DNA from: a virus
Virus genome (UHGV): UHGV-0034894
Length of the DNA stretch: 33,481 bases
Reading direction: 5' to 3' (one strand)
Position numbers and translations under genes: made by a program. The number at the start of each line of letters is the position of its first letter. Position 1 is the first letter of the stretch. The notes under the pieces were generated by a model. It saw only the letters and a program-made list of their open reading frames with translations. It ran no database searches and was not told the origin of the DNA. Below, piece after piece: positions 578 through 25,764 of the stretch.

Positions 578-710
578 CTGGCGAGTTTTATACTCGTTCC
601 CTGCAACAATGGGCTTTTGGTAAGGCACTCACAAATAAGGAATTCGTTAAGGCTTTTGTTCTGGAGACTCTGAAAGATACAAGGAATCAGTTGATGGCTG
701 GTTTGATCAT

Positions 711-751: not shown

Positions 752-878
752 GGTAGAACATAAAACCGAGTTCTTGACTTTCAATAGCTATTATATGCGA
801 TCAACAACCTTAACCATCTCCTTATATTTTATGAGATACTCAAACAATTTAAATTTATGAGCAAAGGAAAATAATAAA

Positions 879-1724
879 GTGAATAAAAATCCCTGGGATA
901 TTCCAGCATGGCACGCTCTGGGCCGAGAAGCATCTTTAGTTACACAGCTCATTGGTTCTGGGGCAACAGCCATAGGTAAAGCCAATTATGCAGACAAAAT
1001 AGGTGAATATTACACAGCATTTTTTGGGCTTTCTGTAGGTTTTGAGAGACTTGCTAAACTAATACTTGTTGCACACTATGCCATTGAACACAAAGGGAAA
1101 ATGCCTGATGAGAATATTGTAAGAAAATTTGGACATAAGCTCATTGAATTAACCAACGAGGTTGATAGTATTTCTAAAAAAATGCAACTATCTCTGAGAT
1201 ATTCACGTCCTACACATAAAATTACCTACAAAATACTTGAATGTTTAGATTCCTTTGCTGATGCCCGACGGGGACGTTACGCAAATTTCTCCTCATTAAG
1301 CAGCCCCAATTTAACCAATAATGAACCTATTAATAAATGGTGGGGAGAAGTAGCCGAGAGTATCCTTGAAAAACATTATTATTATACAGTTGAACAAAGA
1401 CGTGTTGAAGAAAATGCTAGGTTTATCAATGCCACTCTTTCACCGTATACAACGGTCATGTATATGAATGAAAGTACCAACATTATGCAAGACCTTATAT
1501 CAGCCTCCATCCGTACTGGACAAAATACCATTGTTCAAAAGTGGGGAAGATTCTATTCTCTTAGCATCGCTCGTTGGCTTGCCACAGTATTAGCAGAACT
1601 GTCTGATATAGCTTCTCATAAATATGGAATAATTAGTTTTTATGGCCTTAGTGAACATTGTTGCAGTTATATAGTTGAAGATAGTTTTTTAAAAAACAGA
1701 AAAATATGGCCACTTCGCCAATAG
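879..1724 (+). CDS. Orphan cargo protein (281 aa), function unknown; candidate accessory/defence gene
   Basis: GTG start with AAAGGA SD upstream; visibly AT-richer than phage genes; convergent with and abutting the truncated invertase; no family recognised. Confidence 0.6.
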   Translation: MNKNPWDIPAWHALGREASLVTQLIGSGATAIGKANYADKIGEYYTAFFGLSVGFERLAKLILVAHYAIEHKGKMPDENIVRKFGHKLIELTNEVDSISKKMQLSLRYSRPTHKITYKILECLDSFADARRGRYANFSSLSSPNLTNNEPINKWWGEVAESILEKHYYYTVEQRRVEENARFINATLSPYTTVMYMNESTNIMQDLISASIRTGQNTIVQKWGRFYSLSIARWLATVLAELSDIASHKYGIISFYGLSEHCCSYIVEDSFLKNRKIWPLRQ

Positions 1725-1728
1725 TTAA

Positions 1729-2043
1729 CTAGAAAATCTGCATAAGGGGGAGAAATCCCCCACCTGTAATAACATAACTACTAAAATTAACACCTTGTTC
1801 GCACAACTCCTCCACCAGCACGACAAGATGCCGCACACTGCGCCCCAGCCGATCCAGCTTCCAGACAACCAGAGTGTCACCTGCCGATAATGTCCTGAGC
1901 AGTTTTTTCAGTCCCGGCCTTTCGGACTTTGTACCGCTTATCTTGTCTTCAAAAAACAGCTCGCATCCTGCACAGTTCAGCGCATTACGTTGTAGATCTG
2001 TGTTCTGGTCATTTGTTGACACACGTACATAGCCAATAAGCAT
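1729..2043 (-). pseudogene. Truncated Gin/Hin/Pin-family serine DNA invertase (N-terminal about 90 aa only)
   Basis: MLIGYVRVSTNDQNTDLQRNAL...TLVVWKLDRLGRSV matches the invertase catalytic N-terminus; reading frame diverges after GVNF and stops; no other frame continues the invertase. Confidence 0.8.
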
Positions 2044-2097
2044 AGTGGATCCCTCTGACAAAAGCAGGAATGATGCCATTTGCTCGTTATTTCTGCA

Positions 2098-2123
2098 TTT
2101 TCATAAACGTTGGTTTGGGAGAA
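2098..2123. repeat. hix/gix-like 26-bp invertase crossover site (distal)
   Basis: TTTTCATAAACG-TT-GGTTTGGGAGAA; inner half-site plus core are the exact inverted copy of the site at 3920-3945. Confidence 0.7.
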
Positions 2124-2468
2124 GCGGCAAAACGGAATGTGGGCACAGGAGATAATCAGATACCGGATATGGGAGCATTCGCTTCTGGTTCGGGATGGTT
2201 CAGGCTACCAGGTGGATATATTGTTCAGTTTGGCACTTTTTCAGGAAACACGACCCGCTTTATCAGTGGACACTTCCCTATACCATTCCCTAATCAGCCG
2301 ATGATTTCAGTCAGTGTTATGTCTGATGCCGTTCAGTCAGACCCGTCGAATCCTGCCCCGCAGGTTTTGTCTGTAAATTTTGAACATATCAGTAATTCAG
2401 CGTGGCGTGTGGCAACCAGTGATATCTCACAGCAATACAGATTCAGTTATATTTCGATAGGACGGTAG
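2112..2468 (+). CDS. Alternative tail-fibre variable C-terminus (Sv'-like), silent in this orientation
   Basis: Starts at the crossover core in frame (GLGE...), no own start codon; inversion would fuse it in frame to the constant part of the fibre gene. Confidence 0.6.
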   Translation, partial: GLGEAAKRNVGTGDNQIPDMGAFASGSGWFRLPGGYIVQFGTFSGNTTRFISGHFPIPFPNQPMISVSVMSDAVQSDPSNPAPQVLSVNFEHISNSAWRVATSDISQQYRFSYISIGR

Positions 2469-2470
2469 AA

Positions 2471-2911
2471 ATGCAGAAATATATTTTCAGTGCCGATAAA
2501 AATGCGTTTTTCCCTGTGGAGCTTAAAATCGCTTATCAGGAATCCGGCGAATGGCCCGATGATGGAATCGAAATTGACGACACTGTTGCTGCCGAATTTA
2601 TGAAGGAAGCACCAGAAGGAAAATACAGAGGTGTCATCGACGGAATGCCTGCATGGATTGATATTCCACCGCCAACTCATGAGGAACAAATTGCCGCAGC
2701 CGAACTGAAAAAGCAGCAATTGATTAATCAGGTCAACGAATACATAAACAGTAAGCAATGGCCTGGTAAAGCGGCGATTGGTCGCCTGAAAGGTGAGGAA
2801 CTGGTGCAATATAATTTGTGGCTGGATTATCTGGACGCACTGGAACTGGTCGATACTTCCGGTGCGCCAGATATTGAATGGCCTACGCCTCCGGCAGTTC
2901 AGGCCAGATGA
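2471..2911 (+). CDS. Tail fibre assembly protein, alternative copy (U'-like)
   Basis: Tfa-like C-terminus (...[20 protein letters not shown]); sits inside the invertible segment. Confidence 0.7.
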   Translation: MQKYIFSADKNAFFPVELKIAYQESGEWPDDGIEIDDTVAAEFMKEAPEGKYRGVIDGMPAWIDIPPPTHEEQIAAAELKKQQLINQVNEYINSKQWPGKAAIGRLKGEELVQYNLWLDYLDALELVDTSGAPDIEWPTPPAVQAR

Positions 2912-3479
2912 CATCCGGCGCGGTGCTGGTATCTGTTGCCGTCACCGCGTCAATGTAATCCAGCACAGCGTTAAGCCGGGTTGTTTCTGCCTGCGTCAGT
3001 TTCCGCCCGGCTTGTAATTTCAGCTGAATCAGACTAATGGAAGCCATTGCTGCATCAATCAGTGACTGGCGCTGTGCTTCTGACGCGTCTACTGCGGCGC
3101 TATGCTGTGCCTCGGTATCCGTCACCCATTTCTCACCATCCCATTTATCGTATGGCGTTAACGGTGAAAGCGTGACATAACCATCTTTGATGGCACCGAT
3201 ATAATCCACTGTAACAGCTGCGCCATTTTCGATTGAGTAAACAGTCTCATTGCGATGGTCCTCTTCATGGCTCCATCCCTTACCTGTAAATACAGCCACT
3301 TTTCCCGGAATGTTTTCGCCAGGGTTAATTCCAGTGGAACAGGCGGGCATACTTACGCCAGTATTAATATATTCATCAGACCAGCCCGTATACTCAGATG
3401 TTTCAGCATCATAATAAAAACAACGCATATCGCCCGGCACTGTAGCCAGTCCATTTTCATCAAAAATTGGGGTCATCAT
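2883..3479 (-). CDS. Tail fibre assembly protein (U-like), expressed orientation
   Basis: Tfa-like conserved C-terminus (...[22 protein letters not shown]); directly downstream of the fibre gene. Confidence 0.75.
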
Positions 3480-4288
3480 TTAGCCCTCACCAGAAAGTTA
3501 AATGCAATATTTCGCGGTCTGACGGCAACAAAATTCACACCATCACCCACAGAGTTACTGGTGAAATTAAATCGTGAAAATCCTGGCTGATTTCCGGCGA
3601 TACCATCATGAAAATTAATTGTGTGGCCCGCACCATCGCCTATATTCCCGGCAAACTGAGAAAAGTTTGTAGCTGCCTGCCAGCTTAATAATTCGCGACC
3701 ACCGTCTGCACCTCGCCCGTCATCCCAGATACGAATGAAATCACCGCGGGCTTCAGGTAATACCAGCGAAGGAAACACTTTCGCCAGCACAGGGTAATCA
3801 GAGGCAGAAAATTTCGCCCCGTTAAACTTCAAAAACACCATACCGGACCAGCTGTCGATGACAGAATTTGGCATTGCAGCGGACGGCCAGAAGAACGGAA
3901 CGCCAATAGCTGGGGCACCTTCTCCCAAACCAAGGTTTTCGAGAGCTGTTTTCACCGTGCCGTCCGATTTGATATCGCCAAACGGATTCTTGCGGCTCAG
4001 GTATTCAACAGCAAACCCCGATCCCAGCAATTCAACAAAACCGGGCAGATCACCATTATCAAGCACATCCCGTTGCGTTTTATCACTTACAAACTGGGCC
4101 AGAGCTGCAGCAATAAAGCTGGCCTGCCGAATAACCTTATTGACTTGCGCACTGGAGGCTTTCCCTGCTGTAAATCCAGATAAAAGCGCGGGCAACGCTT
4201 CCCATTCCTCCTGCGATATAACATTGGCATTTCGATCCGTTGCAAACGCTTTAAAGTCATTTTTCGCCATCAGAGTAATACTCCCCAT
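3476..4288 (-). CDS. Tail fibre protein (constant N-terminus plus variable C-terminus)
   Basis: Fibre-like motif [17 protein letters not shown]; crossover site lies inside the gene; position after baseplate genes; start uncertain. Confidence 0.75.
3920..3945. repeat. hix/gix-like 26-bp invertase crossover site (proximal, inside the tail fibre gene)
   Basis: TTCTCCCAAACC-AA-GGTTTTCGAGAG resembles the hix consensus; encodes ...LENLGLGE... in the fibre. Confidence 0.7.
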
Positions 4289-4950
4289 GCTCCTACATCA
4301 AAACCACTGATGAATTCGTTATCCATATCAAAACCAAAAAATTTTGAGCCTTCCGATGGGGTTTCCACCGAAGGTGTTTCAATGCCACCCGCCCATACCC
4401 CGGCGGCTTTTACTGTGAGATACCCCTGTTTAATTGCCGCAATTAACTCACGCGATACATCTGAAATATCAGTATCAGGAAAGACCCAGACCGATATCGT
4501 CATGTCCTGGTTATCGACTATCTGCATTCGCAGCCCGGATCCTGCTGTTGCCGCGTCAAGAATTGCCGGAAGCGAATCATTCCGTCCGTCCCAGTTATTA
4601 ATCGCAATCTTCGCTTTAAGAATGACACGATAAGTTTCATCGCTGAGATACATGTATCCTGAATCAGGATCGTATGGTCCCTGCCATACCCCCTGATCAT
4701 ATCCAAGCCCGTCGGTATCCCAGCTGAAATAGACACCTGAGATAGGCTGGCTGACAACACGGCTACGTCCGATCCACAATCCAAGGATGTCAAGTTGCAC
4801 ACCAACCGCAGAGTCAATATCAAATGCACTAATCAGCCCTCTGGTGGCAGCCGCAACATCAATAAGTGGCCGGGTCATCAGATCAACATGCGCAAGAAAT
4901 TTAGGTTTGGTGGCGTGGTAGTTCGTGATTAGTTCGGTGTATTTGCTCAT
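4270..4950 (-). CDS. Tail/baseplate protein, Mu gp48 / YmfQ-like
   Basis: Position between baseplate J-like gene and tail fibre; resemblance to YmfQ-type proteins from memory. Confidence 0.55.
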
Positions 4951-6146
4951 GACTCCACCGTTATAACGATATTTTTCGGGGTACAGGACGCAGATTCGTT
5001 GTATCTGATATCAATGTTTGATGACGACAAAGCCCCCGGGGATTTCCCAATCGTCAGTTCCTGAATATCGTAATAGCGTGCATTCCCGCCACTCACCACG
5101 CCAAGATTCGCCGGTGAGTAAATGCGACTTAAAAGGACCGAATCACCAATCATCAGACTATTGATATAGTCGGAAATAGCCTGCTGGATCTGCTGCCCTA
5201 TCTGTGAGGTATAACCCGTAAAAACTTTTAATTTAATCAGGGCATAAACAGGCACATCACTGGAACGCGAGAATTTGATTACATGGGGATTGCCGTATTT
5301 ATCCGGAACCGTAACGGATGTTGTACCGTGAGTGGCTGTCCCCTGGCCTTTATTCCCTCTGATAGCCTGAGCAATATCCGTTACATCACCGCCATCCACA
5401 ATTACAGCAACAGAGTGTGGCGGTAACCCGTTACCGTCCTCCGAACCAGTATCGTTTTCATAGAGTTTGTGGCGGGTTACACCGGTAACATTAGAAACAG
5501 CACCATCCAGTGCTTCAAATGGGGTTATTGATGGCAACGCAACACTTTGCGACTGGCGGATACGTAACTCAGCGTCAGTTTCTGCCGGAGTGCCCACAGT
5601 GGCTGCAGCAGGATTGGTTACCGAAACCCAGCCACGGGTTGGCGTATTAATTTCAGTGATAGTTCCAGCCAGCGCCGCCACTGCACCACTGACGGAACAT
5701 GTTGCGGTCACCATCACTGTACCATCCACGCCTACCACCACTGAAGCAGGCAAACGCCATATCACATTATTACTGTCTTTCACGCTGCCATTAATGATGG
5801 TTGTTCCGGCAGTTCCTGTAAGAAGCAAATCAACCGTAGAGTTCGTCGCGCCTTTACGTGAAATACCATTTATTTTCACGTTACAGGTCAGTGCAGCCCC
5901 ATAGCCGGTTGCCGGTGAAAAACAGTTGTAGACAGTTATCGCAGTATTATTGGCATCATGAATCGCCAGCGCCATCAGAGCCACCATCTGGCCGTCTTTG
6001 CTGTCCGGTTCGAGGTAGGCATCACTGCCATAAATCTGCTGAAAATAGCTAATCAGGGTGCTGAGTATCGTCTGATAATCAGGCGCACTGATCCCCTCCG
6101 CGGTTACCTTTGCAGATAAACCGAGAGAATCAAGGTTCAGAGCCAT
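4947..6146 (-). CDS. Baseplate J-like protein (Mu gp47-like)
   Basis: Size and synteny; J-like sequence character. Confidence 0.65.
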   Translation of the reverse strand: MALNLDSLGLSAKVTAEGISAPDYQTILSTLISYFQQIYGSDAYLEPDSKDGQMVALMALAIHDANNTAITVYNCFSPATGYGAALTCNVKINGISRKGATNSTVDLLLTGTAGTTIINGSVKDSNNVIWRLPASVVVGVDGTVMVTATCSVSGAVAALAGTITEINTPTRGWVSVTNPAAATVGTPAETDAELRIRQSQSVALPSITPFEALDGAVSNVTGVTRHKLYENDTGSEDGNGLPPHSVAVIVDGGDVTDIAQAIRGNKGQGTATHGTTSVTVPDKYGNPHVIKFSRSSDVPVYALIKLKVFTGYTSQIGQQIQQAISDYINSLMIGDSVLLSRIYSPANLGVVSGGNARYYDIQELTIGKSPGALSSSNIDIRYNESASCTPKNIVITVES

Positions 6147-6499
6147 TACGCCTCCGATGTAACAGTCGTTATTCCATAAAGAGTGTCGATTTCAGCGGAA
6201 AACATGACACGTCGGGTCGTGGTATCCAGCGTCGTATTGAAAGAGAGGATTGATTTAACGCCCTGCGTTTCGAGGATGCGCTTACGGATCGCCAGGTTGT
6301 AGGTTTCCGGCTTCTGCTTACCGAGTACGGACTGGATCCACGGAGTCCCCTCGGTGGTGTCGAGAAACCATTGCCCATACCACAATTCGAATCGCGTTTT
6401 TACCGCCTGCGCCACGGCCTCCGGTGAGTTAATCAGCCAGGTGTCATCACCGCTGCCAAAGGTGTAATCGCCATCGGCGTCTTCACGTCTGTATCGCAT
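6146..6499 (-). CDS. Baseplate wedge protein (gp25/W-like)
   Basis: Small protein translationally coupled between spike and J genes. Confidence 0.5.
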   Translation of the reverse strand: MRYRREDADGDYTFGSGDDTWLINSPEAVAQAVKTRFELWYGQWFLDTTEGTPWIQSVLGKQKPETYNLAIRKRILETQGVKSILSFNTTLDTTTRRVMFSAEIDTLYGITTVTSEA

Positions 6500-7251
6500 C
6501 AGTTTACCCCGTCGGTACTGCTTCCACCGCGCTGAACACCACCATGAGTGTGCGTATCATCGATTGGCTTGCCGTTAGCCTTCACGCTCCCCAAAAACTC
6601 AACAGCACCAGTGATTTTTGAAGCCACACCAGAAACCACAGACCCCACCATGCCCCCCATCCAGGTTAACAGGCCATGAATGGTTACTTTCTCAGAAAAA
6701 TCAGCCAGGGGGGCAACCACATCAAGCCCCCCCGGAGCGACAATTTTAATTTTCCTGGTATCAGGATTAAGCTCAAAATAGGTGCTGCCGTCGTCACTAC
6801 GCAACTGTGTGGCACTGGTATTAATACCGCTAATCTTCCTAGCCTGCGACTGGGGACCGACAATACAAAACGCATCCGATAAATCATGCATTCTGTCATC
6901 AACCGTCTCCTGTATCCCGCCGCTCTGCCACCAGAAATCAATACAACGATCGGCAAAAACGACAAGACACTCATCCCCAGCTTTTACCGGAAAAGTCAAC
7001 GTACAGCCTCCGCCGCGCGGGAATACCACTGGCACATCCACCAGCAATGGGTAATTTTTGGTAATGCGGTTACCGTCGTTATCCTTTTCAACTGACCGGA
7101 TAGCTGGCTGCACAACCGCCGTCACCGCGTCAGGATCGAATGACTGAATAATGCCAGGCAAGGCGACACGGATCTGGTTCTTTGTTGTTTCCCGTTCAGA
7201 TTTAAATGTTTCGGCAAGATCGCCACTGCGGGTCTGGTCAGTTACTGCCAT
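6499..7251 (-). CDS. Baseplate spike/assembly protein V-like
   Basis: gpV-like N-terminal OB region and C-terminal DDTHTHGG apex motif. Confidence 0.7.
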   Translation of the reverse strand: MAVTDQTRSGDLAETFKSERETTKNQIRVALPGIIQSFDPDAVTAVVQPAIRSVEKDNDGNRITKNYPLLVDVPVVFPRGGGCTLTFPVKAGDECLVVFADRCIDFWWQSGGIQETVDDRMHDLSDAFCIVGPQSQARKISGINTSATQLRSDDGSTYFELNPDTRKIKIVAPGGLDVVAPLADFSEKVTIHGLLTWMGGMVGSVVSGVASKITGAVEFLGSVKANGKPIDDTHTHGGVQRGGSSTDGVN

Positions 7252-7264
7252 TGGTAGGCTCCAA

Positions 7265-7296
7265 AAAGCAAAAAACCCGCCGGGTGGCAGGTTTTA
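7265..7296 (-). terminator. Rho-independent terminator after the inserted two-gene cassette
   Basis: On minus strand ACCUGCC-ACCC-GGCGGGU stem-loop followed by UUUUUUGCUUUUU, 16 nt after the 170-aa gene stop. Confidence 0.55.
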
Positions 7297-7311
7297 TCTC
7301 ATGAAGAATGA

Positions 7312-7824
7312 CTATCGGTGGATAGTATTAAAGTATTCAGAAAGCTGATTATCAGTTATCAAACACAACTGCATCAAATAAATAGAGTATTTCAATAACT
7401 TTTCATCACGAACGGGGGCGGGACGTAAATACTTCCCGCCGTGAAAGAGATTATTTCTTATATACGGGATCTGCTTTAATGCTTCAGCAAGAGAATGAGG
7501 TTCGATTGGAGGTTTATCCTCCCACGAAAAATCATGCCTCTGCTGCTTCACAGGTTGCTGACATAGATACTCAACTGCCCTATCGACATTTCTATTTCCA
7601 GTAGGATATAAAGGCCGCGTATCATCAGTAGCGTAGCGGCTCCAGTCAGCACCGATTAGATAATTTCTACGATCAGTTTTTTTGAAATTAATTCTTTTTA
7701 ACGCATATTCGAAACGCGAAAAATAATTAAAAAACCTTATAACAAGAGTAATATCAATTCCGCCGAGAAGTTCCTGAAAGTCAGGGTCTTGAAATGAATT
7801 CAAAGGATCATCATCAACTGTCAC
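7312..7824 (-). CDS. Hypothetical protein (170 aa), second gene of an insertion within the baseplate operon
   Basis: AT-richer than flanking tail genes; 4-bp overlap with upstream 111-aa gene; no family recognised. Confidence 0.55.
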   Translation of the reverse strand: MTVDDDPLNSFQDPDFQELLGGIDITLVIRFFNYFSRFEYALKRINFKKTDRRNYLIGADWSRYATDDTRPLYPTGNRNVDRAVEYLCQQPVKQQRHDFSWEDKPPIEPHSLAEALKQIPYIRNNLFHGGKYLRPAPVRDEKLLKYSIYLMQLCLITDNQLSEYFNTIHR

Positions 7825-8156
7825 TTGCTGCTCACTTTTTTACACGGGAAAGATCCAATGATTTTCGGCGCGTCCATGCTGTTCTGCAGCAGCTGGACGT
7901 TCAGGAAAGCTTTTCCGTTACGTTTCACAAACTCAAAGCCGTAATTGTTACCATCACGGGAAGGCATCAGGCCCATGTCCATTTTCATGTTTGAATAGTC
8001 ACCATCTTTTCCCAGAAATTTTATCTTCTGTGATGTGACAGTTTCACCGTTAATAACAGTCATTCCGTCACCGGTCATCGTGTAGTTGCCGCACTGAATT
8101 GCAGCCATCGCCGGAGCAGTAACCATCATAACTAACGCCAAACATAACCGTTTCAT
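7821..8156 (-). CDS. Small secreted/periplasmic protein (111 aa) with Sec signal peptide
   Basis: N-terminus MKRLCLALVMMVTAPAMAA is a typical signal peptide; start overlaps stop of hub gene. Confidence 0.6.
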   Translation of the reverse strand: MKRLCLALVMMVTAPAMAAIQCGNYTMTGDGMTVINGETVTSQKIKFLGKDGDYSNMKMDMGLMPSRDGNNYGFEFVKRNGKAFLNVQLLQNSMDAPKIIGSFPCKKVSSK

Positions 8157-9220
8157 TAAAGCCCTCTTTCCCTCGCTGATGAGGAAACAAGATCCGCCGC
8201 GCCACGCGCTTCACACATCATATCCATGTACCACGCCTGGCCCCTTGTGTCGCCAGTGTACATAATCCCGCGCACAATATAAACGCCATCCGTTGCGATG
8301 CTGGCAGGCTGCGATGTGGTGCCGCTGAGCGTGATATTTCCGTCCGTGTTCTGGTCGGTGATCTGACCACCAGCCATCGCAATATCGTTGTTCGACAACG
8401 CGGTACGATAGACGGAAGCCTGATCCAGCTGAATGAGCCCGTTAACCCGGATGTTCGGATTAATAAGCGCGCGGACGTTTACGCCGTTACCGATAGTCTG
8501 CTGCGGCATTCCAATAAGCCCGGTAGCGCTGTTGAGCACAATCGCTTCGTGAACATATTCGTTATTCACCACCATCTGGCGCTGACCGTCCACGAATTGC
8601 CATGTTGCGCCACATTGTCCGGCTACGTTATCCATTAGATGCCGCGTCATGCCAAAGAGTACCCGCCCCCGGGGGAATACAGTAGCAGGCATTTCAGGCG
8701 TCAGGCCTTCGGTCGCGCCTTTGGCTTCGAAGTCTTTCATCAGCGCACGGTTCACATCAGCGACCGTGTAACCGGCAGCCAGCGTCTGTGAGGTTATACT
8801 GGTAGCAAAAGCCAGATCAGTATCTGCTGCCTGAATCAGGACGTAGGTATCAACCGGACTGTCTTTTCCTGTGACCGAGTAGCGAATTTCACCGCTGAAA
8901 ATCAGTCCGTAGTTGCGGCCATCTCTCTGGCCCACGTCCGCCGCGTCAACTTCCCGCACGGTCCCTACGTCGCTTGCTGACACCTCCGGCGCGATACCGT
9001 CGTAACCGGCAATCAGACGCACTTTCGAAAACTCCTGCCCGGTAATTCGGTTCACAGTATCTGCCGAGAGGTTATAAATTTTGATAGTCCCTACCCGGGA
9101 CGCGCTGCTGATGTTGAACCAGTCGATCGTAAAGGTGACTTTGAAATCACTTAGCTCAATTCCCTGACCGTTCCCGTCCACAAGCTGCAGCTCGAAATGT
9201 CTCATCCAGTTCTGTGACAT
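8156..9220 (-). CDS. Tail/baseplate hub protein (P2 gpD / Mu P-like)
   Basis: Size and position downstream of tape measure and small tail proteins. Confidence 0.55.
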   Translation of the reverse strand: MSQNWMRHFELQLVDGNGQGIELSDFKVTFTIDWFNISSASRVGTIKIYNLSADTVNRITGQEFSKVRLIAGYDGIAPEVSASDVGTVREVDAADVGQRDGRNYGLIFSGEIRYSVTGKDSPVDTYVLIQAADTDLAFATSITSQTLAAGYTVADVNRALMKDFEAKGATEGLTPEMPATVFPRGRVLFGMTRHLMDNVAGQCGATWQFVDGQRQMVVNNEYVHEAIVLNSATGLIGMPQQTIGNGVNVRALINPNIRVNGLIQLDQASVYRTALSNNDIAMAGGQITDQNTDGNITLSGTTSQPASIATDGVYIVRGIMYTGDTRGQAWYMDMMCEARGAADLVSSSARERGL

Positions 9221-9222
9221 GC

Positions 9223-9525
9223 TTACTCCGTTGATACCAGTAAATGGCTGCGACCGCCCAGGTCAGTTTTTGTGGGGTAATCCTGTGTGTTGTCATCACA
9301 GACCACCACCAGCTTAAAACCAAGCCCCATACAGGCGTACTGCGCCAGCAGGTCAGCACCAGTGACGAGAGGAATACCGGAGATTACCGGCTCCCCTCTG
9401 TCGTTCTGCAGGTCCATAATCCAGTACAGATCGCGCCATATGATGCTAATCCGCCAGGTGACACCACCCAGGACGATGCTGAACTGCTGGTTGTCCGCTG
9501 TCAGCGGAATTTCCTGAATTGTCAT
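9223..9525 (-). CDS. Small tail protein
   Basis: Synteny only. Confidence 0.4.
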   Translation of the reverse strand: MTIQEIPLTADNQQFSIVLGGVTWRISIIWRDLYWIMDLQNDRGEPVISGIPLVTGADLLAQYACMGLGFKLVVVCDDNTQDYPTKTDLGGRSHLLVSTE

Positions 9526-10112
9526 TAGCCGCCCCCCAGTAATGACGCCACGTTACCCGTGATGCTTTTCAGCAGTGAAGTATCTGGAGGCTTTGTGGTT
9601 TTGTTGCCGCTGTTCTGTACCGCCGACGTGCTGGCCCCTTCCTTCATGTTGGTTTTATCCGCGACGGTAATCTGCTGTGTCCGGGAGATAATGACCTCCC
9701 TCAGGGTGAGGACGGCGGACAGGACGTTTTCGGTTGTCTTGTCCGTCGTCACTTCCAGCGCCCGGATCAACATGTTGCTGTACAGCCGTTTACCGGTTAC
9801 CACATCGAAGGGGATACGGCTTTCCTGCAGACCCAGTAGCTCCTGATACGTCTGCTGAGGACTCAGGCCGAGCAGGCTGGTAGCCGTCAGGTTACTGGCA
9901 AAATCCAGCAATGCGCCGCCACCGGCGAAACCAACCTCCATCACCACTTCTGACGGTTTTTTATAGGCATGATCAGCGACAGCGGCCCCGACCTCTACCG
10001 GATGCTCTGTTATTTCAAGCATATCTGTATGCTTCTCTGAAATAACAACACTGGGAACAATCATTCCTATTTTTCTGCTCTGCTGATGAAAAAGTGTAGA
10101 GAGAATATCCAC
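9525..10112 (-). CDS. Tail protein downstream of tape measure
   Basis: Synteny only; translationally coupled. Confidence 0.4.
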   Translation of the reverse strand: MDILSTLFHQQSRKIGMIVPSVVISEKHTDMLEITEHPVEVGAAVADHAYKKPSEVVMEVGFAGGGALLDFASNLTATSLLGLSPQQTYQELLGLQESRIPFDVVTGKRLYSNMLIRALEVTTDKTTENVLSAVLTLREVIISRTQQITVADKTNMKEGASTSAVQNSGNKTTKPPDTSLLKSITGNVASLLGGG

Positions 10113-12118
10113 TAACCCACCCTCACCTGATTACTTCGCATGACCTGAGCATTTGCAGACTGTTGCCGACGTGCAACCTCATTACCGACAGCGTGCGGAT
10201 CTCCGCCACCGTAAATGTGGTAGGTATTTTGCTGGTTAACCTCTGTCACTTTGCCACTAATTCCCGCCACGGCAGCCTTATTAATCAGCTCTCGAGAATA
10301 GATATTTCTTCCATTCTCATGCTGGATAATGCTGCTCATCAATGCTGACATGGTTTGCGGATCGCTCATATTCAGGGCAGCCCGGGGATCCACTCCCAGT
10401 CGTTGCGATACAGCCCTGATATACGCTGTTGTGTTGTTATTATCAGACGCAGGTGCCCAGGTAGAGATAATTTTCTCCACACTGTTTATTCCCCGTCCGG
10501 CGTACAGCATTAACTGACGAGCAAGAGCCCGTAATCCATCAAAGGCAGTTTCAAATCTGGCAAATCGCCCGCCCGGGCGTTCAAGAGAAGCCCCTGCCTG
10601 ACCAGCAAAATTAAGGTTTCCCGGATTGTTATTCCGTTCTCCTCGTTTCGTAGCCTGTGCATATTGTTCCGGCTCAGCACCTGGAATATCTGACTGAATA
10701 TTTGCGCCTTTTACGGTATGAGGATTACGACCAAAATCGGTATCAATGCCAAGCCAGCGCAATGAATCTCCAATATTTTGTTTCGTGTAATCCCAGGATG
10801 ACTTCGCACTGGCACCAATATTTTCGCGATCAGAGTACAAATACGCAGCATAAGCCATCCAGCCTTTTAACCACGGCGGGACCGGCAAACCTGATATTTT
10901 CCCGAAAGCCCCCAGAACCCTGGATACCCAGACACCCGCGATGAATGTACCAAGGATTTCCAGTGCATTTTGCCAGCCGCCAACACCATCTTTTAGTTCC
11001 AGAAGGTGATCACGAAGCCAGGTGATCGCATCCTTCGCTTTATCTATTGCCGGTTGCCATTTTTCCCAGTCGATAAGACTGTTACCGCCTTCTTTCCATG
11101 TTTTGTAGTCTTCCCACAAGAGACCGAGAGCCACGATCAGACCGGTAATCAGCCCTATAGGTGACATCCAGAAAGTAGAGTTAAGTATCCGCATGGCGAC
11201 AACCAGACCGCCGATAACCTCTATCAGGGTTTTCGTTTCGGCATCCAGTTTCCCCCACCACTCGATGATATCTCCGACACCATCGACTATCCGAAATGCT
11301 ACCCGCCCGACTATCTCACCCAGCCAGAGGATCCCCTTTATGACCTTTGTGATGGTGACTTCAATTTTGGGAAAATTTTCAATTATCTTTTTGCGCAGGT
11401 TATCAATCTGCCCCGCCAGTCCGTCCGCAAGATTCGATCCGATTTTGTCCCGCGCCATCCTGGCCATTTCACCGAGCGATTTCAGCGAGGTCATAAACCG
11501 GTTTGACGATAAGGCAGCCTGATCGGCATTAAATCCGATCGCTTTCACCATTTCTGAATACTGAGCGCTGAACTGCCCCACTCCGCGACGCATAGCCATC
11601 AGGGTATTTTCGTCAATGCCCAGCATCTGCGCATACTGGTTAGCCCGGTAATACGGCATGCTGCTGAGTTTCTGTCCAACGCCCGTAAAGATAGCAGCCA
11701 TGTCACGCATGTTACCGCTGGCATCACGGGTCTGTACGCCCAGGCGATTCAGAAAGCCTTCTGCTCCGGGATTGTTACGAATAAACCGGGAGAGGCTTTC
11801 CAGAGAAGATCGCGCAGCGTCCACACTGCCGCCAACCTGCGAAACCGCATAGCCAATAGACTGAATTCCCTGGACCGTCGCGCCGGTGCGCTGTGACGCC
11901 CAGTAAAGATTATCCAGGCCGGAGGCGATCTTAGCCGTGAAGGCCACCACGGACAGCGCAGCCCCTTCAACAGCCAGCCCCATTTTGATGACATTTGCAG
12001 TTGTACCGGCGAGGACAGAACCGAACTTTTTCGCTCCTGCATCATCCACACGGAAGCCAAGCGAGACGAGGAAATCTTTAATAGTTTCAGCGTTCATTAT
12101 CCTCTCTCCATTTCTCAA
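10112..12118 (-). CDS. Tail tape measure protein (668 aa)
   Basis: Long helical protein with central hydrophobic segments, after tube and chaperone genes; start may be at the internal Met at 12097. Confidence 0.8.
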   Translation of the reverse strand: MRNGERIMNAETIKDFLVSLGFRVDDAGAKKFGSVLAGTTANVIKMGLAVEGAALSVVAFTAKIASGLDNLYWASQRTGATVQGIQSIGYAVSQVGGSVDAARSSLESLSRFIRNNPGAEGFLNRLGVQTRDASGNMRDMAAIFTGVGQKLSSMPYYRANQYAQMLGIDENTLMAMRRGVGQFSAQYSEMVKAIGFNADQAALSSNRFMTSLKSLGEMARMARDKIGSNLADGLAGQIDNLRKKIIENFPKIEVTITKVIKGILWLGEIVGRVAFRIVDGVGDIIEWWGKLDAETKTLIEVIGGLVVAMRILNSTFWMSPIGLITGLIVALGLLWEDYKTWKEGGNSLIDWEKWQPAIDKAKDAITWLRDHLLELKDGVGGWQNALEILGTFIAGVWVSRVLGAFGKISGLPVPPWLKGWMAYAAYLYSDRENIGASAKSSWDYTKQNIGDSLRWLGIDTDFGRNPHTVKGANIQSDIPGAEPEQYAQATKRGERNNNPGNLNFAGQAGASLERPGGRFARFETAFDGLRALARQLMLYAGRGINSVEKIISTWAPASDNNNTTAYIRAVSQRLGVDPRAALNMSDPQTMSALMSSIIQHENGRNIYSRELINKAAVAGISGKVTEVNQQNTYHIYGGGDPHAVGNEVARRQQSANAQVMRSNQVRVG

Positions 12119-12329
12119 TGCGTCGCTGGTTATCCGCTTTTACCGCCAGATGGTCATTCAAGAGAGCAATGTCATACAAATCGACAGAGCCATCTTTAAG
12201 TGCTGTATAAGGAATTAACCCGGCGTCAACCGGATTGAGAAGGTAGGACAGCCCGTCCGGCAGGCTGTTAAACGTCAGCCCTGTTGCAGGCTCTGCGTCG
12301 TGCTGGTAAGGGGTGTAGGCAAAAAATTT
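12087..12329 (-). CDS. Candidate -1 frameshift extension of the tail assembly chaperone (GT / E+E'-like)
   Basis: Slippery heptamer A_AAT_TTT in zero frame near the chaperone 3' end; the -1 frame stays open about 80 codons, has no ATG, fills the gap to the tape measure start. Confidence 0.45.
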   Translation of the reverse strand, partial: KFFAYTPYQHDAEPATGLTFNSLPDGLSYLLNPVDAGLIPYTALKDGSVDLYDIALLNDHLAVKADNQRRIEKWREDNER

Positions 12330-12727
12330 CCCAGCGAATCGGCGACCACCCGCGCCACCAGCTGCAGCATGACCAGCAAGTCAATATCATCAAACATCAG
12401 TTCGCCCTGGGTAAATACCGGCACCCATCCGTCCATATGACGCCGCGATACCACCGCAAGACAGGGATGAATAATCGCATCGGTGTCATCTTCGGTCAGG
12501 GAAGACAGTTCCTCAGCGATACGCGGGAGCATGGTTTCAAACACCGGTTTTAACTGTTCGAATTTCACGGTGTCGATTTTGCCGTCAGCAGGCAAACGGG
12601 AGCGAATACTCCCGAAATCTGACATCATTCCTGCCAGCACCGGCAGAAGTTTGCGGGTCACTTTCAGCTGGTCAAAAACGCTGAGTTTTGCCGTGCGATA
12701 TTTCACGCCTTTAATTTCGAATTCCAT
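12275..12727 (-). CDS. Tail assembly chaperone
   Basis: Position between tail tube and tape measure genes; acidic small protein. Confidence 0.6.
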   Translation of the reverse strand: MEFEIKGVKYRTAKLSVFDQLKVTRKLLPVLAGMMSDFGSIRSRLPADGKIDTVKFEQLKPVFETMLPRIAEELSSLTEDDTDAIIHPCLAVVSRRHMDGWVPVFTQGELMFDDIDLLVMLQLVARVVADSLGNFLPTPLTSTTQSLQQG

Positions 12728-12730
12728 GCA

Positions 12731-13171
12731 TTAAAACTCCCCGAGAACCTGGTCAATCTTGCCGCAGTCAAACACCCACGGCATCGTATTACCGGTTTTA
12801 GCGTTGGCGTTATCCGGTTGTTTCTGGAACGCAACACTGCGTGCCGTGATGATGTCGCCGCTGACCTTGTTGCGGATAACGATAACGTTATTCCCCCATG
12901 TGGCAGAAGACTGGCTCTGTGCGTTATACGCCAGCGACAATTTTTTATTTGTCGGTGATGTCTTCAGAAGGTTAACGGTAATCGTCCCGCTTTTATCTGC
13001 ATGGAGGCTGTGCATCACTTCACCATCAGCACCGATGGTCATGGTGTTTTTAGGACCGCCCATCGCAACCACAATCCCCTCTTCAGAACTTGCCGAACCG
13101 TACCCGAGGTCAATCGAACCGGTCGGCCCGGTCAGCGTCGCAGTGACATCCATAAAAGAATAGGTAGACAT
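12731..13171 (-). CDS. Tail tube protein
   Basis: Size and position directly downstream of sheath gene. Confidence 0.65.
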   Translation of the reverse strand: MSTYSFMDVTATLTGPTGSIDLGYGSASSEEGIVVAMGGPKNTMTIGADGEVMHSLHADKSGTITVNLLKTSPTNKKLSLAYNAQSQSSATWGNNVIVIRNKVSGDIITARSVAFQKQPDNANAKTGNTMPWVFDCGKIDQVLGEF

Positions 13172-13181
13172 TCACTTCCCC

Positions 13182-14327
13182 TTAGCGAACAACGTTAATC
13201 TGTACGTCAGCGTAATGAACCGCGCCTGCAAGTTTTATTGCAGCCTGAATCACCGGAGCCTTACGGGCTTCACGTTCTGATTGTGCCTGTTCATCCAGCG
13301 GCTGGGCGTATACGTAATAACCTTTGGGCAGCGTGTCACCTGATGACAACTGGCCAAGGTCGCCACCGTTCCATACGCCCGGAGCAATCAGTCCATTCTG
13401 AACGGCCTGATCCAGTGATTTTTCAACATTTGATAACAGTCGGGTAATACCGGCTTCAGTCTGGGGAACCTTCGTGGTGCTGGTATAAAGCAGGTTATAG
13501 AGGTTGGTCTGCACATAATTCTGTAACCAGTCCAGGCCGTGGCGTTCATCAAAGAAATCGCCGTTAGCCATCACTCCCTGCTGGAGGATAGCTGTATCAT
13601 TCTGGTAGTACACGAACACATTGCAGTTTTTTGCATCAAGTGCCGATGCCTGGCTGACTGTCAGTGTTTCATACCCGACACCCGGCTCCTGCTTAAACTT
13701 GAGCGTAATCGCGGTATTACTGCCATTGAAATTAACCGTGAATGCCCGGCCAAATGCAGATAACGCAGCGAATTTATTACCCGATGAATATTGTATAAAA
13801 CTGCGTGAATATCCGGCGCTTTTCAGTTTTGATGCCAAATCATCTCTGGATGCAGTCTGCAGGCATTTCTCATCGCTTGTCGTAATCGCCAGAATACGGC
13901 TTACAGAAGAGGATTCGATCGCCGCAGCCACTTTCAGCCAGTCTGCATCCGGAATATCTGCATCGTCTGCAATCCCCAGCCCATACCATGAAGTATAATC
14001 AAGCATGGCATTCACAGCCTGCTCCAGCGTCTCAGGCGTGGCCTGTTCGCTGTCTCCCTTCGTTTTCACCCAACGACCAACAAAAACCTCCTGAGGTTTC
14101 GGTGATTGTGAGAAAAACACCTGCGCAGCTTTATATTCTGGTGATTCCACGCCAAAATCTTTTCCAATATCTTCCGCGGCAGAATAACGGCGAATGCGCT
14201 CACTTACCGGAATGATTGTGGACGGGCCGAGAATGAGTAATGCACCAAAATTTCGCCCTGATGCTGCACGCGGCGACATGATCACATCAACATTAACAAC
14301 GTTTGATACAGGCAAGCCCTGTGCCAT
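13182..14327 (-). CDS. Tail sheath protein (SfV/Mu-like contractile tail)
   Basis: Size and synteny; resembles DUF3383-type sheath proteins from memory. Confidence 0.6.
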
Positions 14328-14330
14328 AGC

Positions 14331-24910: not shown

Positions 24911-24933
24911 AAAAAAAGTTCGCCATAGCGAAC
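24911..24933 (-). terminator. tR'-like rho-independent terminator between Q and the lysis genes
   Basis: Minus strand GUUCGC-UAUG-GCGAAC perfect hairpin followed by UUUUUUU. Confidence 0.6.
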
Positions 24934-25341
24934 CTTGTTAAATTTGTTAAAAAAGGAAGTTATTTAACATAATGTACGTTATAGGAACCACACGATCCCC
25001 GCTCGCAATAGATTTGCGATGAAAGGCCTATTTAATCAACTTAAGTGGTCCAGAATGACGAAATTCGAGTGAATAAAAGGTGCATAAAAAAGGGCAAAAA
25101 CTGCATAGCGTTTTTTCGCAGCGAAAGCCCTGTTTTATTAACTTTTCCCCAGAATGGGGCAATAAAAAAGGCCCCCTTGCGGAAGCCTCTTCGTGATGAA
25201 CTGTTTTCAACAGATATCAGGCTAATCGGCTTTTTGGAATTCCACAACTATTTTTTATCTTACCTTGATACCTGAAGCCGTCAGGTGTTTACGGCAATCC
25301 TGAATACCATCTGATTCCCTTACGTGATTGATTACTGGATA

Positions 25342-25764
25342 TTATGCCGCCGGGCAGCTCCTTCGCAAAGTCCTGATAGCCTTAGGCTTTGACTGAACTG
25401 CTTGATCCATTTCCAGAACCACGTCCAGCATAGCCAGGCAGCCGTCGATAAATCCCTCTGCAGCCTGGAGCCTCTTCAGAACTTGAGTGTGTGATACGCC
25501 GAGCTTCACACCCATAGCCCTCACAGGCATCGCCTGGATGTAATGCCACTCAAGGAGCGTACACAGGTACGGATCTTTTTTCTTCAGGCAGTTCATAGCA
25601 GAGCTGATGATCAGACCGTCATTGTCACTGCACTTCAGCCGCCCGGCTTGCGTTGCAGGTAGCAGATTCTTAAATCCAGCGGAAACAGGTGGATAGTAGA
25701 CACTGCAACCTTCGCTCGCAGCCCAGCCCCCCCATCGCTCTAAAACCAGTCGAATATCACGCAT
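25342..25764 (-). CDS. Late-gene antiterminator Q-like protein
   Basis: Position immediately upstream of late leader/terminator and lysis cassette; resembles Q-like proteins from memory. Confidence 0.55.
   Translation of the reverse strand: MRDIRLVLERWGGWAASEGCSVYYPPVSAGFKNLLPATQAGRLKCSDNDGLIISSAMNCLKKKDPYLCTLLEWHYIQAMPVRAMGVKLGVSHTQVLKRLQAAEGFIDGCLAMLDVVLEMDQAVQSKPKAIRTLRRSCPAA

What the first reader, a model, noticed from the sequence alone, without database searches (positions are those of the whole stretch)
7265..8156. Two-gene insertion with its own terminator inside the baseplate operon
Between the hub-like gene and the spike gene, where Mu/P2-type tail modules are normally contiguous, sit a 111-aa protein with a clear Sec signal peptide and a 170-aa protein of unknown family. 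The pair overlaps by 4 bp, is AT-richer than its neighbours and is followed by a good intrinsic terminator before the spike gene. A terminator-flanked insertion inside a late operon is the classic moron layout and would be read through by Q-modified polymerase. The pair could be a lysogenic-conversion, exclusion or defence cassette.
Basis: partly seen in the sequence, partly recalled or inferred. Interest (0 to 1): 0.7.

Follow-up and report, generated by a model that had tools for sequence, protein, structure and literature searches.

The report
Swappable cargo slot in prophage baseplate operon
Between two tail-tip genes of an E. coli prophage lies a fixed slot where related prophages carry different accessory genes, some of them known anti-phage systems; here it holds one uncharacterised gene that looks like an RNA-cutting (HEPN-type) enzyme.

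Summary
The sequence features are real: a 111-aa signal-peptide gene (7821-8156), a 170-aa gene (7312-7824) overlapping it by 4 bp, low GC, and a strong hairpin+T-run terminator (7295-7262) before the spike gene. The "two-gene insertion" reading is only half right.

- **ORF-A is resident.** In 121 related loci, an ORF-A homologue follows the hub in 106. In some loci it is the only gene in the gap.
- **ORF-B is the swappable part.** Similarity to sister prophages breaks at ~7833-7837 and resumes at ~7292-7297, the first base of the terminator stem. The cassette (~7298-7832) holds ORF-B alone.
- **The slot is a hotspot.** About 40 gene arrangements occur there, including PD-Lambda-1, PDC-S42, an Mrr-type nuclease and a YafO toxin pair.
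- **The terminator is constant.** It is present in 111 of 121 loci, with compensatory stem changes.
- **Q is present.** A lambda-type Q antiterminator with a promoter/terminator leader sits upstream, so late read-through is plausible.

ORF-B belongs to an uncurated family (2,392 clusters) with invariant E39, R123, H128. Its RNxxxH aligns with the catalytic R401/N402/H406 of a Csx1 HEPN RNase. It is probably a solitary HEPN-like RNase, and a defence role is inferred, not shown. This is a new member of a known kind; interest is moderate.

The parts
8156..9220 (-). Baseplate hub gene; conserved left anchor of the locus
   Evidence: phrog_196 'baseplate hub' E 2e-88; Pfam E217_GP41 E 5e-5, below cutoff. 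Used as anchor to fetch 125 related loci.
7821..8156 (-). ORF-A, 111 aa, exported (Sec signal peptide; two invariant Cys, C22 and C105). Resident 'slot 1' gene of the module, not part of the swappable cassette
   Evidence: phrog_3443 E 2.7e-53. A 98%-identical RefSeq protein is named 'STY1065/STY2022 family phage-derived protein'. Homologue directly after the hub in 106 of 121 loci. 410 clusters, all listed names from Enterobacterales, several labelled 'Secreted protein'. Alignment A2 shows the conserved signal peptide and Cys pair. AF2 model: N-terminal helix plus a beta-sheet, pLDDT 76.7. Looked up from ORF-A homologues, the gene is again upstream of the spike gene, directly after the hub in Edwardsiella.
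7298..7832 (-). Swappable cassette (slot 2) as delimited by loss of similarity to sister prophages. It holds ORF-B and supplies the last ~4 codons of ORF-A
   Evidence: blastn breakpoints against ~100 loci cluster at window 7833-7837 (left) and 7292-7297 (right). The empty site L078 joins these two points. GC 38.5%. Present in 25 of 5,426 complete E. coli genomes, all at least 99.8% identical, against 353 genomes with the flanking backbone.
7312..7824 (-). ORF-B, 170 aa, probable solitary HEPN-like RNase. Its GTG start overlaps the ORF-A stop (GTGA)
7262..7295 (-). Intrinsic terminator (8-10 bp stem, ACCC loop, T-run). Constant right boundary of the slot; the T-run ends 18 nt before the spike ATG
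   Evidence: z = -3.1. A hairpin+T-run is present in 111 of 121 loci, with more than 20 loop variants. On 35 distinct sequences, 94.8% of cells are paired and 4 of 8 pairs show changes on both sides; 0 of 500 shuffles reach the covariation score. The motif occurs once in the window.
6499..7251 (-). Spike gene (gpV/Gp138 type); conserved right anchor. Its RBS GGAG at 7259-7262 follows the terminator tail directly, leaving no room for a promoter
   Evidence: Pfam N-domain E 5e-44 and Apex motif; sequence read.
25342..25764 (-). Q-family antiterminator gene that would license read-through of the slot terminator during lytic growth
   Evidence: Pfam Phage_antitermQ E 8.3e-41; PGAP 'antiterminator Q family protein' in the identical prophage.
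24915..25370 (-). Late-operon leader between Q and the holin: sigma-70-like promoter (25368-25341) and two hairpin+T-run terminators (~25190-25160 and 24936-24915)
   Evidence: The holin follows at 24468-24809 (Phage_holin_3_1, E 1e-27).

Best explanation
The hub-spike interval of this Q-regulated temperate myophage is a two-tier accessory locus.

- **Slot 1.** Directly after the hub, slot 1 holds a resident exported protein (ORF-A here). It most likely acts in the cell envelope of the lysogen, for example in superinfection exclusion, rather than in the virion.
- **Slot 2.** It runs from the last codons of ORF-A to a conserved intrinsic terminator just upstream of the spike gene. It is a recombination hotspot where related prophages carry interchangeable 'gene(s) + terminator' units of the moron type.
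- **This window.** Slot 2 holds a single low-GC gene, ORF-B. It belongs to a large uncurated family with a HEPN-type R-N-x3-H catalytic motif.

The most likely mode of action is as follows. ORF-B is a solitary HEPN-like ribonuclease, kept latent in the lysogen. Infection by another phage activates it, and it then cuts RNA and aborts that infection, like the single-gene HEPN Abi proteins. Its translation is coupled to ORF-A. The terminator stops transcription that is not Q-modified from entering the spike and downstream tail genes. Q-modified polymerase reads through it during lytic growth.

**Shown:** the anatomy, the slot boundaries, the diversity of cargo, the conserved hairpin, the presence of Q, and the invariant R/H motif.

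**Inferred:** export of ORF-A, RNase activity, expression in the lysogen, the defence role, and Q read-through.
For: **Slot and boundaries**
- Across 121 loci there are ~40 architectures, and ORF-A is present in 106.
- Breakpoints are sharp, at 7833-7837 and 7292-7297, and the empty site L078 joins them.

**Cargo in sister loci**
- PADLOC hits: PD-Lambda-1 (E 3e-82), PDC-S42 (E 2e-36) and Mrr/ZorD-like nuclease models.
- Pfam hits: YafO toxin and Mrr_cat. A T5orf172 protein sits in the same slot in Edwardsiella.

**Terminator**
- It is conserved with covariation.
- Stacked cargos carry extra copies of it (L032; L134).
- The loop sequence tracks the cargo more than the spike allele: 1.54 against 2.39 bits of conditional entropy, and 0 of 2,000 permutations as low.

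**Q system:**

**ORF-B as HEPN-like**
- R123 and H128 are invariant and N124 nearly so.
- The motif aligns with the catalytic R401/N402/H406 of Csx1.
- One family member gives faint Pfam hits to HEPN_Swt1 and Abi_2 (E ~0.05).

**Genomic context of relatives**
- Distant relatives sit as solo genes beside HEPN_AbiV, TIR, Mrr-DEAD and RNase_T genes, or beside an nSTAND3 NTPase.
- One sits in the structural module of a Klebsiella prophage.
- Every enterobacterial relative checked lies in this same slot.
Against: **On the HEPN assignment**
- No curated HEPN, Abi or defence model matches ORF-B.
- The PDB profile hits are below significance (E 0.03-0.07).

**On expression and role**
- There is no promoter of its own. 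ORF-B overlaps ORF-A, and the only sigma-70-like site nearby is weak. Expression could therefore be purely late and lytic.
- No antitoxin or regulator is evident to hold a free RNase in check.
- ORF-B occurs in only 25 of 5,426 E. coli genomes, all nearly identical and mostly at similar chromosomal coordinates. This looks like one lineage, so it gives no population evidence of selection.
- Defence-island context was seen for only a few distant relatives.

**On ORF-A**
- The exclusion role has no direct support. The fold search was uninformative.
Confidence: 0.55

Rival explanations
1. ORF-B serves the phage's own lytic cycle. It is transcribed only from the Q-dependent late operon and translated by coupling to ORF-A. 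It then cuts host or competitor RNA for host takeover or counter-defence, and has no role in the lysogen.
For: There is no intergenic space or convincing promoter. The start/stop overlap with an ORF-A-type frame is conserved in every enterobacterial homologue examined except L134, which has a 40-nt gap. It holds even where only a 17-codon relic of ORF-A remains. The gene lies inside a late operon driven by Q.
Against: Most prophages of this family lack ORF-B (25 of 353 E. coli genomes with the backbone), so it is dispensable for lytic growth. The same slot carries recognised host-protective systems. Low GC and the terminator-bounded layout are typical of lysogen-expressed morons. Distant relatives lie in non-phage defence-island contexts.
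Confidence: 0.2
2. ORF-B is the toxin of an addiction or toxin-antitoxin module whose antitoxin has not been recognised (a small RNA or a short ORF). Its main effect is to stabilise the prophage rather than to defend against phages.
Against: No MNT or other partner gene is present. ORF-A is exported and is present whatever the cargo, so it cannot be a cognate antitoxin. Rfam finds no RNA family in the region. The antisense promoter-like matches are no more frequent than chance. Family members are usually solo genes.
Confidence: 0.1
3. ORF-A and ORF-B are tail or baseplate components, or assembly factors, of this phage lineage.
For: They lie between two baseplate genes, are read in the same direction and are coupled translationally. 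ORF-A is nearly universal at this position.
Against: ORF-A has a canonical cleavable signal peptide and a conserved Cys pair, which suits the periplasm and not cytoplasmic virion assembly. ORF-B is absent from more than 90% of otherwise near-identical tail modules and is replaced by unrelated genes. Some related modules have the hub followed directly by the terminator and spike (L041, L048, L052).
Confidence: 0.05
4. ORF-B is a HEPN-like protein without nuclease activity (a binding or regulatory protein), or a selectively neutral hitch-hiker in one clonal prophage lineage.
For: Fold and profile evidence for HEPN is sub-threshold. The E. coli copies are essentially one clone.
Against: R, H, G and K of the motif, plus E39, are invariant across 68 members at ~29% mean identity. 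This argues for a conserved active site under purifying selection. Homologues at 49-74% identity persist in the same slot in Pantoea and Citrobacter genomes, in a Logan sequencing-run assembly, and in a contig labelled Chryseobacterium that is probably mislabelled enterobacterial DNA.
Confidence: 0.1

Closest known systems
Morons of lambdoid phages (HK97/HK022 tail-region morons; lambda lom and bor) - from my own knowledge of Juhala et al. 2000 and Hendrix et al. 2000
   Same: Extra gene between two late genes that are adjacent in relatives. Deviant (low) GC, an intrinsic terminator at its 3' end, and a host phage with a Q antiterminator that can read through.
   Different: No recognisable promoter of its own. 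ORF-B is translationally coupled to the upstream resident gene. The slot lies inside the baseplate operon of a myophage with a Pam3/E217-type baseplate.
Defence hotspots of P2-like phages and P4-like satellites (Rousset et al. 2022, from my own knowledge)
   Same: A fixed position between conserved phage genes where related elements carry interchangeable cargos, including validated anti-phage systems. PD-Lambda-1 is found here in L034, and a T5orf172 protein of the same length in L152.
   Different: Different phage lineage and different position (hub-spike). The right boundary is a conserved terminator hairpin. An exported 'slot 1' gene always precedes the cargo. I found no description of this hotspot in the searched literature.
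Single-gene HEPN abortive-infection proteins (AbiV, AbiD/AbiF = Pfam Abi_2, AbiJ, AbiU2)
   Same: Small, mostly helical, solitary proteins with an R-x4-6-H motif, carried on mobile elements. One ORF-B relative sits next to a HEPN_AbiV gene in a defence island.
   Different: No significant sequence match to any of these families. The best are E ~0.05 hits to HEPN_Swt1 and Abi_2 for one family member. No experimental data.
HEPN RNase domain of Csx1/Csm6 (Csx1-Crn2, PDB 8y7f/8y75; PMC11317161)
   Same: The family profile aligns RNNLFHGGK with RNsvaHGGR, so R123/N124/H128 fall on the catalytic R401/N402/H406. The following helix also aligns.
   Different: E-values are 0.03-0.1, not significant. 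ORF-B has no CARF or HTH sensor domain and is not in a CRISPR context.
Phage-encoded envelope exclusion proteins next to tail genes (T4 Sp, T5 Llp, phi80/N15 Cor) - analogy for ORF-A, from my own knowledge
   Same: Small exported protein encoded beside the phage's own host-penetration genes.
   Different: No sequence or fold similarity. Function untested.

Membership tests
Moron (extra transcription unit inside a late operon) | Gene absent from the same position in related phages whose flanking genes are adjacent | tested here: met
   For ORF-B: the empty site L078, and about 40 alternative contents. For ORF-A: true only against a few distant loci (L041, L048, L052); it is otherwise resident.
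Moron (extra transcription unit inside a late operon) | Own promoter upstream | tested here: inconclusive
   There is no intergenic space (4-bp overlap with ORF-A, 1-bp overlap of ORF-A with the hub). The only match is a 9/12 sigma-70-like site at 8047-8018 inside ORF-A, and the count of such sites is no higher than in shuffles.
Moron (extra transcription unit inside a late operon) | Intrinsic terminator downstream | tested here: met
   7295-7262, z = -3.1. Conserved with compensatory changes.
Moron (extra transcription unit inside a late operon) | Base composition different from neighbours | tested here: met
   ORF-B GC 38.4% and GC3 33.9%, against 51-54% and 51-61% in hub and spike.
Moron (extra transcription unit inside a late operon) | Expressed from the repressed prophage | not testable with these tools
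   Needs RNA-seq or 5'-end mapping in a lysogen.
HEPN superfamily | Conserved R-x4-6-H motif with a polar residue after R | tested here: met
   R123-N-N-L-F-H128. R and H are invariant and N124 at least 90% conserved in 68 members.
HEPN superfamily | Helical-bundle fold matching solved HEPN domains | tested here: inconclusive
HEPN superfamily | Significant match to a curated HEPN family model | tested here: not met
   No Pfam, NCBIfam or PADLOC hit. Profile against the PDB gives E 0.03-0.1 to Csx1 HEPN.
HEPN superfamily | Metal-independent RNase activity from a dimeric composite site | not testable with these tools
   Needs biochemistry.
HEPN-MNT type II toxin-antitoxin | Adjacent minimal nucleotidyltransferase (MNT) antitoxin gene | tested here: not met
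   The only neighbour is the exported ORF-A, which has no Pfam domain. No other ORF lies in the cassette.
Known anti-phage defence systems (PADLOC-DB 2.0) | Match to a defence-protein model | tested here: not met
   No family for ORF-A or ORF-B at E<=1.
phrog_3443 / RefSeq 'STY1065/STY2022 family phage-derived protein' (ORF-A) | Full-length sequence match | tested here: met
   phrog_3443 E 2.7e-53 over residues 3-109. A 98%-identical protein carries the RefSeq name. The NCBIfam HMM library itself gave no hit, so that name must rest on another rule.
Prophage defence/accessory hotspot | Same flanking genes with many unrelated cargos, some of them known defence systems | tested here: met
   About 40 architectures in 121 loci. 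PD-Lambda-1, PDC-S42, an Mrr-type nuclease and a YafO toxin are among them.

The most novel reading that the evidence does not exclude
ORF-B is the first noticed member of a large, uncurated family of solitary HEPN-like ribonucleases (at least 2,392 clusters at 50% identity). These would act as single-gene abortive-infection effectors. The hub-spike interval of these Brunovirus-like enterobacterial prophages would then be an undescribed defence hotspot, marked by an exported 'slot 1' gene and a conserved terminator. Its unannotated cargos could be mined for new systems. An example is the C2+C3 pair, found in 45 of 121 loci.
Probability: 0.35. Interest if true: 0.65.

Novelty: new member of a known kind. 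Interest (0 to 1): 0.5.

Why it matters
- **A precise way to find cargo.** The finding gives a sequence-defined way to locate accessory cargo in a common family of enterobacterial prophages (353 of 5,426 complete E. coli genomes). The cargo lies between the ...GSFPCKKV end of ORF-A and the CCCGCC-loop-GGCGGG-T6 hairpin before the spike gene. Validated systems such as PD-Lambda-1 sit there, so the many unannotated cargos are good candidates for new anti-phage or exclusion functions.
- **An uncurated protein family.** ORF-B belongs to a large protein family that is missing from Pfam, NCBIfam and PADLOC. It has an intact HEPN-type catalytic motif.
- **A testable regulatory layout.** The conserved terminator lies in the middle of a baseplate operon with a Q antiterminator upstream. 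This is a clean case for testing how late-operon read-through and lysogen-time insulation coexist.

Tried and rejected
- **Family libraries.** Pfam, NCBIfam and PADLOC scans of both proteins gave no hits.
- **PDB sequence search.** phmmer of both proteins against PDB sequences gave only chance-level hits.
- **ORF-B fold search.** Foldseek of the ORF-B model against the PDB gave nothing below E = 2.7. The afdb50 library was not available.
- **ORF-B against other cargos.** hhalign of the ORF-B family against the common cargos C2, C3, C5 and C7 gave no relationship (probability below 1%).
- **Rfam.** An E-value search of 6400-9300 gave no RNA family.
- **ORF-A/ORF-B as a toxin-antitoxin or functional pair.** Rejected, because ORF-A is exported and is present whatever the cargo. 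What is real is the translational coupling of ORF-B to the 3' end of ORF-A.
- **Hairpin as an integron-like attC recombination site.** Considered because cassettes end at it and stacked cassettes repeat it. No integrase lies nearby, and the stem sequence resembles, from my own knowledge, ordinary E. coli intrinsic terminators. I kept this only as a remote possibility.
- **Literature.** Searches for the phage names, protein accessions, STY1065 and hub-spike hotspots found no prior description.
Full report
**1. What is in the sequence**

All genes in this part of the window are on the - strand. In order of transcription they are:
- tape measure protein (10112-12118);
- Dit-like baseplate protein (9525-10112);
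- Pam3-gp18-type plug (9223-9525);
- baseplate hub (8156-9220);
- ORF-A (7821-8156, 111 aa);
- ORF-B (7312-7824, 170 aa, GTG start);
- a hairpin plus T-run (7295-7262);
- gpV/Gp138-type spike (6499-7251);
- a 117-aa gene that Pfam does not recognise here, but whose counterparts in related loci carry the Sheath_initiator domain (6146-6499);
- baseplate J (4947-6146).

The hub stop and ORF-A start overlap (TAATG). The ORF-A stop and ORF-B start also overlap (GTGA).

GC content is 38.4% for ORF-B (GC3 33.9%) and 45.2% for ORF-A. It is 54.4% for the hub and 51.1% for the spike.

The hairpin AAAACCTGCC-ACCC-GGCGGGTTTT plus a T-rich tail is the best-scoring terminator-like site on the gene strand in window 1-17000. 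It folds at -19.3 kcal/mol, z = -3.1.

**2. The phage**

The window is identical to Escherichia phage vB_EcoM-689R2 and three sister isolates. It is also identical to a prophage beside yfhH in E. coli WP3-W18-ESBL-08. More distant relatives include Salmonella phage SEN34 (genus Brunovirus), Yersinia phage YP3 and Klebsiella phage Mulock.

The prophage encodes a Q-family antiterminator at 25342-25764 (Pfam E 8e-41). A sigma-70-like promoter and two hairpin+T-run terminators follow it, ahead of the holin. Lysis, head, tail and baseplate genes then run in one direction.

This is the lambda PR'/tR' layout. It makes Q-dependent read-through of internal terminators plausible. That step rests on established knowledge of lambda Q and was not tested here.

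**3. Comparative anatomy of the hub-spike interval**

I used the hub protein to fetch 45 loci from one genome per species and 80 viral contigs. I added eight annotated records. In each locus I located the hub and spike by tblastn and catalogued what lies between them. In total, 121 loci had both anchors.

- **ORF-A is resident.** A homologue lies directly after the hub in 106 loci, including phages whose hub is only ~48% identical. In 8 loci it is the only gene in the gap. In 3 loci the hub is followed directly by the spike region.
- **The rest is highly variable.** About 40 gene arrangements occur. Examples are an unannotated pair C2+C3 (45 loci), an unknown protein plus a YafO-type toxin, and a DUF2335 membrane protein. 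Others are a tRNA_anti-like OB-fold exported protein, an Mrr_cat nuclease, a PADLOC PDC-S42 protein and PD-Lambda-1.
- **ORF-B is rare.** It was found only in the window, one identical viral contig, and one locus at 53% identity.

Where ORF-A itself is replaced (families C8, C14, C31), the replacement also begins with a signal peptide or lipobox (sequences).

I also looked up two distant ORF-A homologues. In Edwardsiella the order is hub, ORF-A homologue, a T5orf172 protein, spike. In Photorhabdus the locus is a degraded remnant.

**4. Boundaries of the slot**

I ran blastn of the window's hub-to-spike region against all loci. Similarity stops at window 7833-7837, about four codons before the ORF-A stop. 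It resumes at 7292-7297, the first base of the terminator stem. The empty site L078 joins these two points. The swappable unit in the window is therefore ~7298-7832 and contains ORF-B alone.

A GC-rich hairpin followed by T5-7, ending 12-19 nt before the spike ATG, is present in 111 of 121 loci. These include the empty loci and the three that lack ORF-A. More than 20 different loops occur, and some stems show compensatory variants, for example CCCAC/GTGGG, GCCGCT/AGTGGC and CCCAGC/GCTGGG.

On 35 distinct sequences:
- 94.8% of cells form a standard pair;
- 4 of 8 pairs show changes on both sides;
- 0 of 500 shuffles reach the covariation score;
- sliding the partner columns collapses pairing to 30-60%.

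A more distant subgroup of six loci has ORF-A abutting the spike with no hairpin. None of these carries cargo.

Two further observations suggest the hairpin travels with the cargo:
- The loop sequence tracks the cargo better than the spike allele: conditional entropy 1.54 against 2.39 bits, with 0 of 2,000 permutations as low. The loci are related to one another, which weakens this test.
- Stacked cargos carry a second hairpin copy (L032; L134).

Together these fit repeated exchange of 'gene(s) + terminator' units. The crossover points would be the conserved 3' end of ORF-A and the hairpin/spike 5' region.

Only ~10 nt (GAGCCTACCA) lie between the terminator tail, whose last G begins the GGAG ribosome-binding site, and the spike ATG. 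The spike and downstream genes therefore have no room for a promoter and must be transcribed through the hairpin.

**5. ORF-A**

The family has 410 clusters at 90% identity. Every source name among the 120 listed hits is from Enterobacterales, and the proteins are ~110 aa. All aligned members have an N-terminal signal peptide and invariant C22 and C105. The C-terminal two-thirds is very well conserved.

It matches phrog_3443 (unknown function). RefSeq names a 98%-identical copy 'STY1065/STY2022 family phage-derived protein'.

I infer a periplasmic protein. A role in the lysogen's envelope, such as exclusion of incoming phages, is the most economical guess, but it has no direct support.

**6. 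ORF-B**

The word-indexed search found only 27 clusters. An exhaustive profile search found 2,392 clusters at E<=1e-3 and 606 at E<=1e-30. Most are stand-alone proteins of 155-180 aa. A few are fused to DUF6884. No Pfam, NCBIfam or PADLOC model covers the family.

In 68 diverse members (mean column identity 29%), E39, R123, H128, G129 and K131 are invariant. F35, R37, F38, K43, N124, N125, L126, F127, G130 and R139 are at least 90% conserved. The motifs are FSRFEyALK and RNNLFHGGK.

The second motif is a textbook HEPN R-N-x3-H. The family profile's best functionally interpretable PDB match is the HEPN domain of Csx1-Crn2. There RNNLFHGG aligns with RNSVAHGG (E 0.03-0.1). Counting along that alignment places R123, N124 and H128 on R401, N402 and H406. 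The structural paper identifies these as the R-X4-6-H catalytic residues (PMC11317161).

I rate 'HEPN-like RNase' as probable, about 0.65, but not established.

**7. Where relatives of ORF-B sit**

All enterobacterial relatives that I looked up (49-74% identical) lie in this same slot, immediately upstream of the spike.

In five loci (L015, L138, L146, L147, L148) the homologue's start abuts or overlaps the stop of an ORF-A-type frame ending ...GSFPCKKVxx*. In L138 a different exported gene has replaced ORF-A, and only a 17-codon relic of its end remains. L134 is the one exception, with a 40-nt gap. ORF-B therefore travels with the 3' end of ORF-A and is probably translated by coupling to it.

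Distant relatives occur in these contexts:
- as solo genes next to HEPN_AbiV, TIR_2, Mrr_cat_2-DEAD and RNase_T genes;
- next to a 1,257-aa nSTAND3 NTPase;
- downstream of an HTH_3 plus Peptidase_M78 pair;
- in the structural module of Klebsiella phage ST101-KPC2phi6.1.

This pattern suggests a conflict-system gene, but it rests on a handful of look-ups.

**8. Distribution**

The flanking backbone is present in 353 of 5,426 complete E. coli genomes. The ORF-B cassette is present in 25. All copies are at least 99.8% identical, and most lie at similar chromosomal coordinates. It is probably inherited within one or a few lineages.

**9. Interpretation**

Three corrections apply:
- only ORF-B is the exchangeable cargo;
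- ORF-A is a resident exported protein of the module;
- the terminator is a constant feature of the locus, shared by all cargos and by empty sites.

For ORF-B I commit to a solitary HEPN-like RNase acting as a latent abortive-infection effector. I give the defence step itself about 0.4.

The main rival is a purely late, phage-serving RNase. No separate promoter could be found, and the gene is translationally coupled within the late operon.

An addiction-toxin role, a structural role and a non-catalytic role are less likely, for the reasons given under the rival explanations.

**10. Novelty and score**

Morons, prophage defence hotspots and HEPN Abi proteins are all known kinds. This particular hotspot, its terminator-marked boundary, its two-tier organisation and the ORF-B family were not found in the curated libraries or the searchable literature.

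I class it as a new member of a known kind, with moderate interest (0.5). It is useful as a mining handle and as a candidate new defence family. It would not surprise a specialist.

Noticed in passing
window 1777-2911 (and 2883-3476): Tail-fibre C-terminal and assembly genes lie in opposite orientations beside a truncated recombinase pseudogene, according to the PGAP annotation of the identical prophage. This looks like a Mu G-segment-type invertible tail-fibre switch whose invertase is broken, so host range may be frozen in one orientation.
   Followed up: no
window 24915-25370, - strand: The interval between Q and the holin (~530 nt) holds a sigma-70-like promoter overlapping the end of Q, and two hairpin+T-run terminators (~25190-25160 and 24936-24915). 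This is the lambdoid PR'/tR' arrangement.
   Followed up: partly
sister loci, e.g. L005 2412-3571 and L062; 45 of 121 loci: The commonest cargo of the slot is an unannotated overlapping pair: C2 (243-276 aa) plus C3 (123-153 aa). Neither has a Pfam or PADLOC hit, and neither is related to ORF-B. It is a candidate unknown two-gene system.
   Followed up: partly
L002, L004, L027, L026 (position directly after the hub): Where ORF-A is replaced (families C8, C14, C31), the substitute also starts with a signal peptide or lipobox. Slot 1 therefore always encodes an exported protein. RefSeq labels C8 'HMG-box domain-containing', which looks like a misannotation for a lipoprotein.
   Followed up: no
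L034 (Pantoea dispersa), L152 (Edwardsiella anguillarum), L033 (Pantoea ananatis), L025 (Rouxiella silvae): Recognised defence genes sit in the same slot. L034 carries PD-Lambda-1 (E 3e-82) and L152 carries a T5orf172/MUG113 protein of the same length. L033 carries PDC-S42 with two more genes, and L025 carries a membrane-anchored Mrr_cat nuclease.
   Followed up: partly
L015 (labelled Chryseobacterium sp. 18061) and L051 (labelled Bacillus sp., 255-bp contig): These records carry DNA encoding a hub 93-96% identical to the enterobacterial one. They are probably contamination or mislabelled assemblies rather than true hosts.
   Followed up: no
L139 2378-3139 (same prophage, beyond the window's end): The early region of the identical prophage encodes a TIR domain-containing protein next to a DNA polymerase and a VRR-NUC gene. 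This may be a second accessory or defence gene of the same prophage.
   Followed up: no
window 10112-12118: The counterparts of the tape measure protein in sister loci carry a lytic transglycosylase (SLT) domain (Pfam annotation in L134 and L147; RefSeq 'lytic transglycosylase'). A periplasmic inhibitor of such an enzyme is one conceivable role for the exported ORF-A. This was not tested.
   Followed up: no
P0047, P0055 (ORF-B family members of 332 and 650 aa): Some family members are fused to DUF6884, a domain of unknown function. This may hint at a sensor or partner domain for the HEPN-like module.
   Followed up: no
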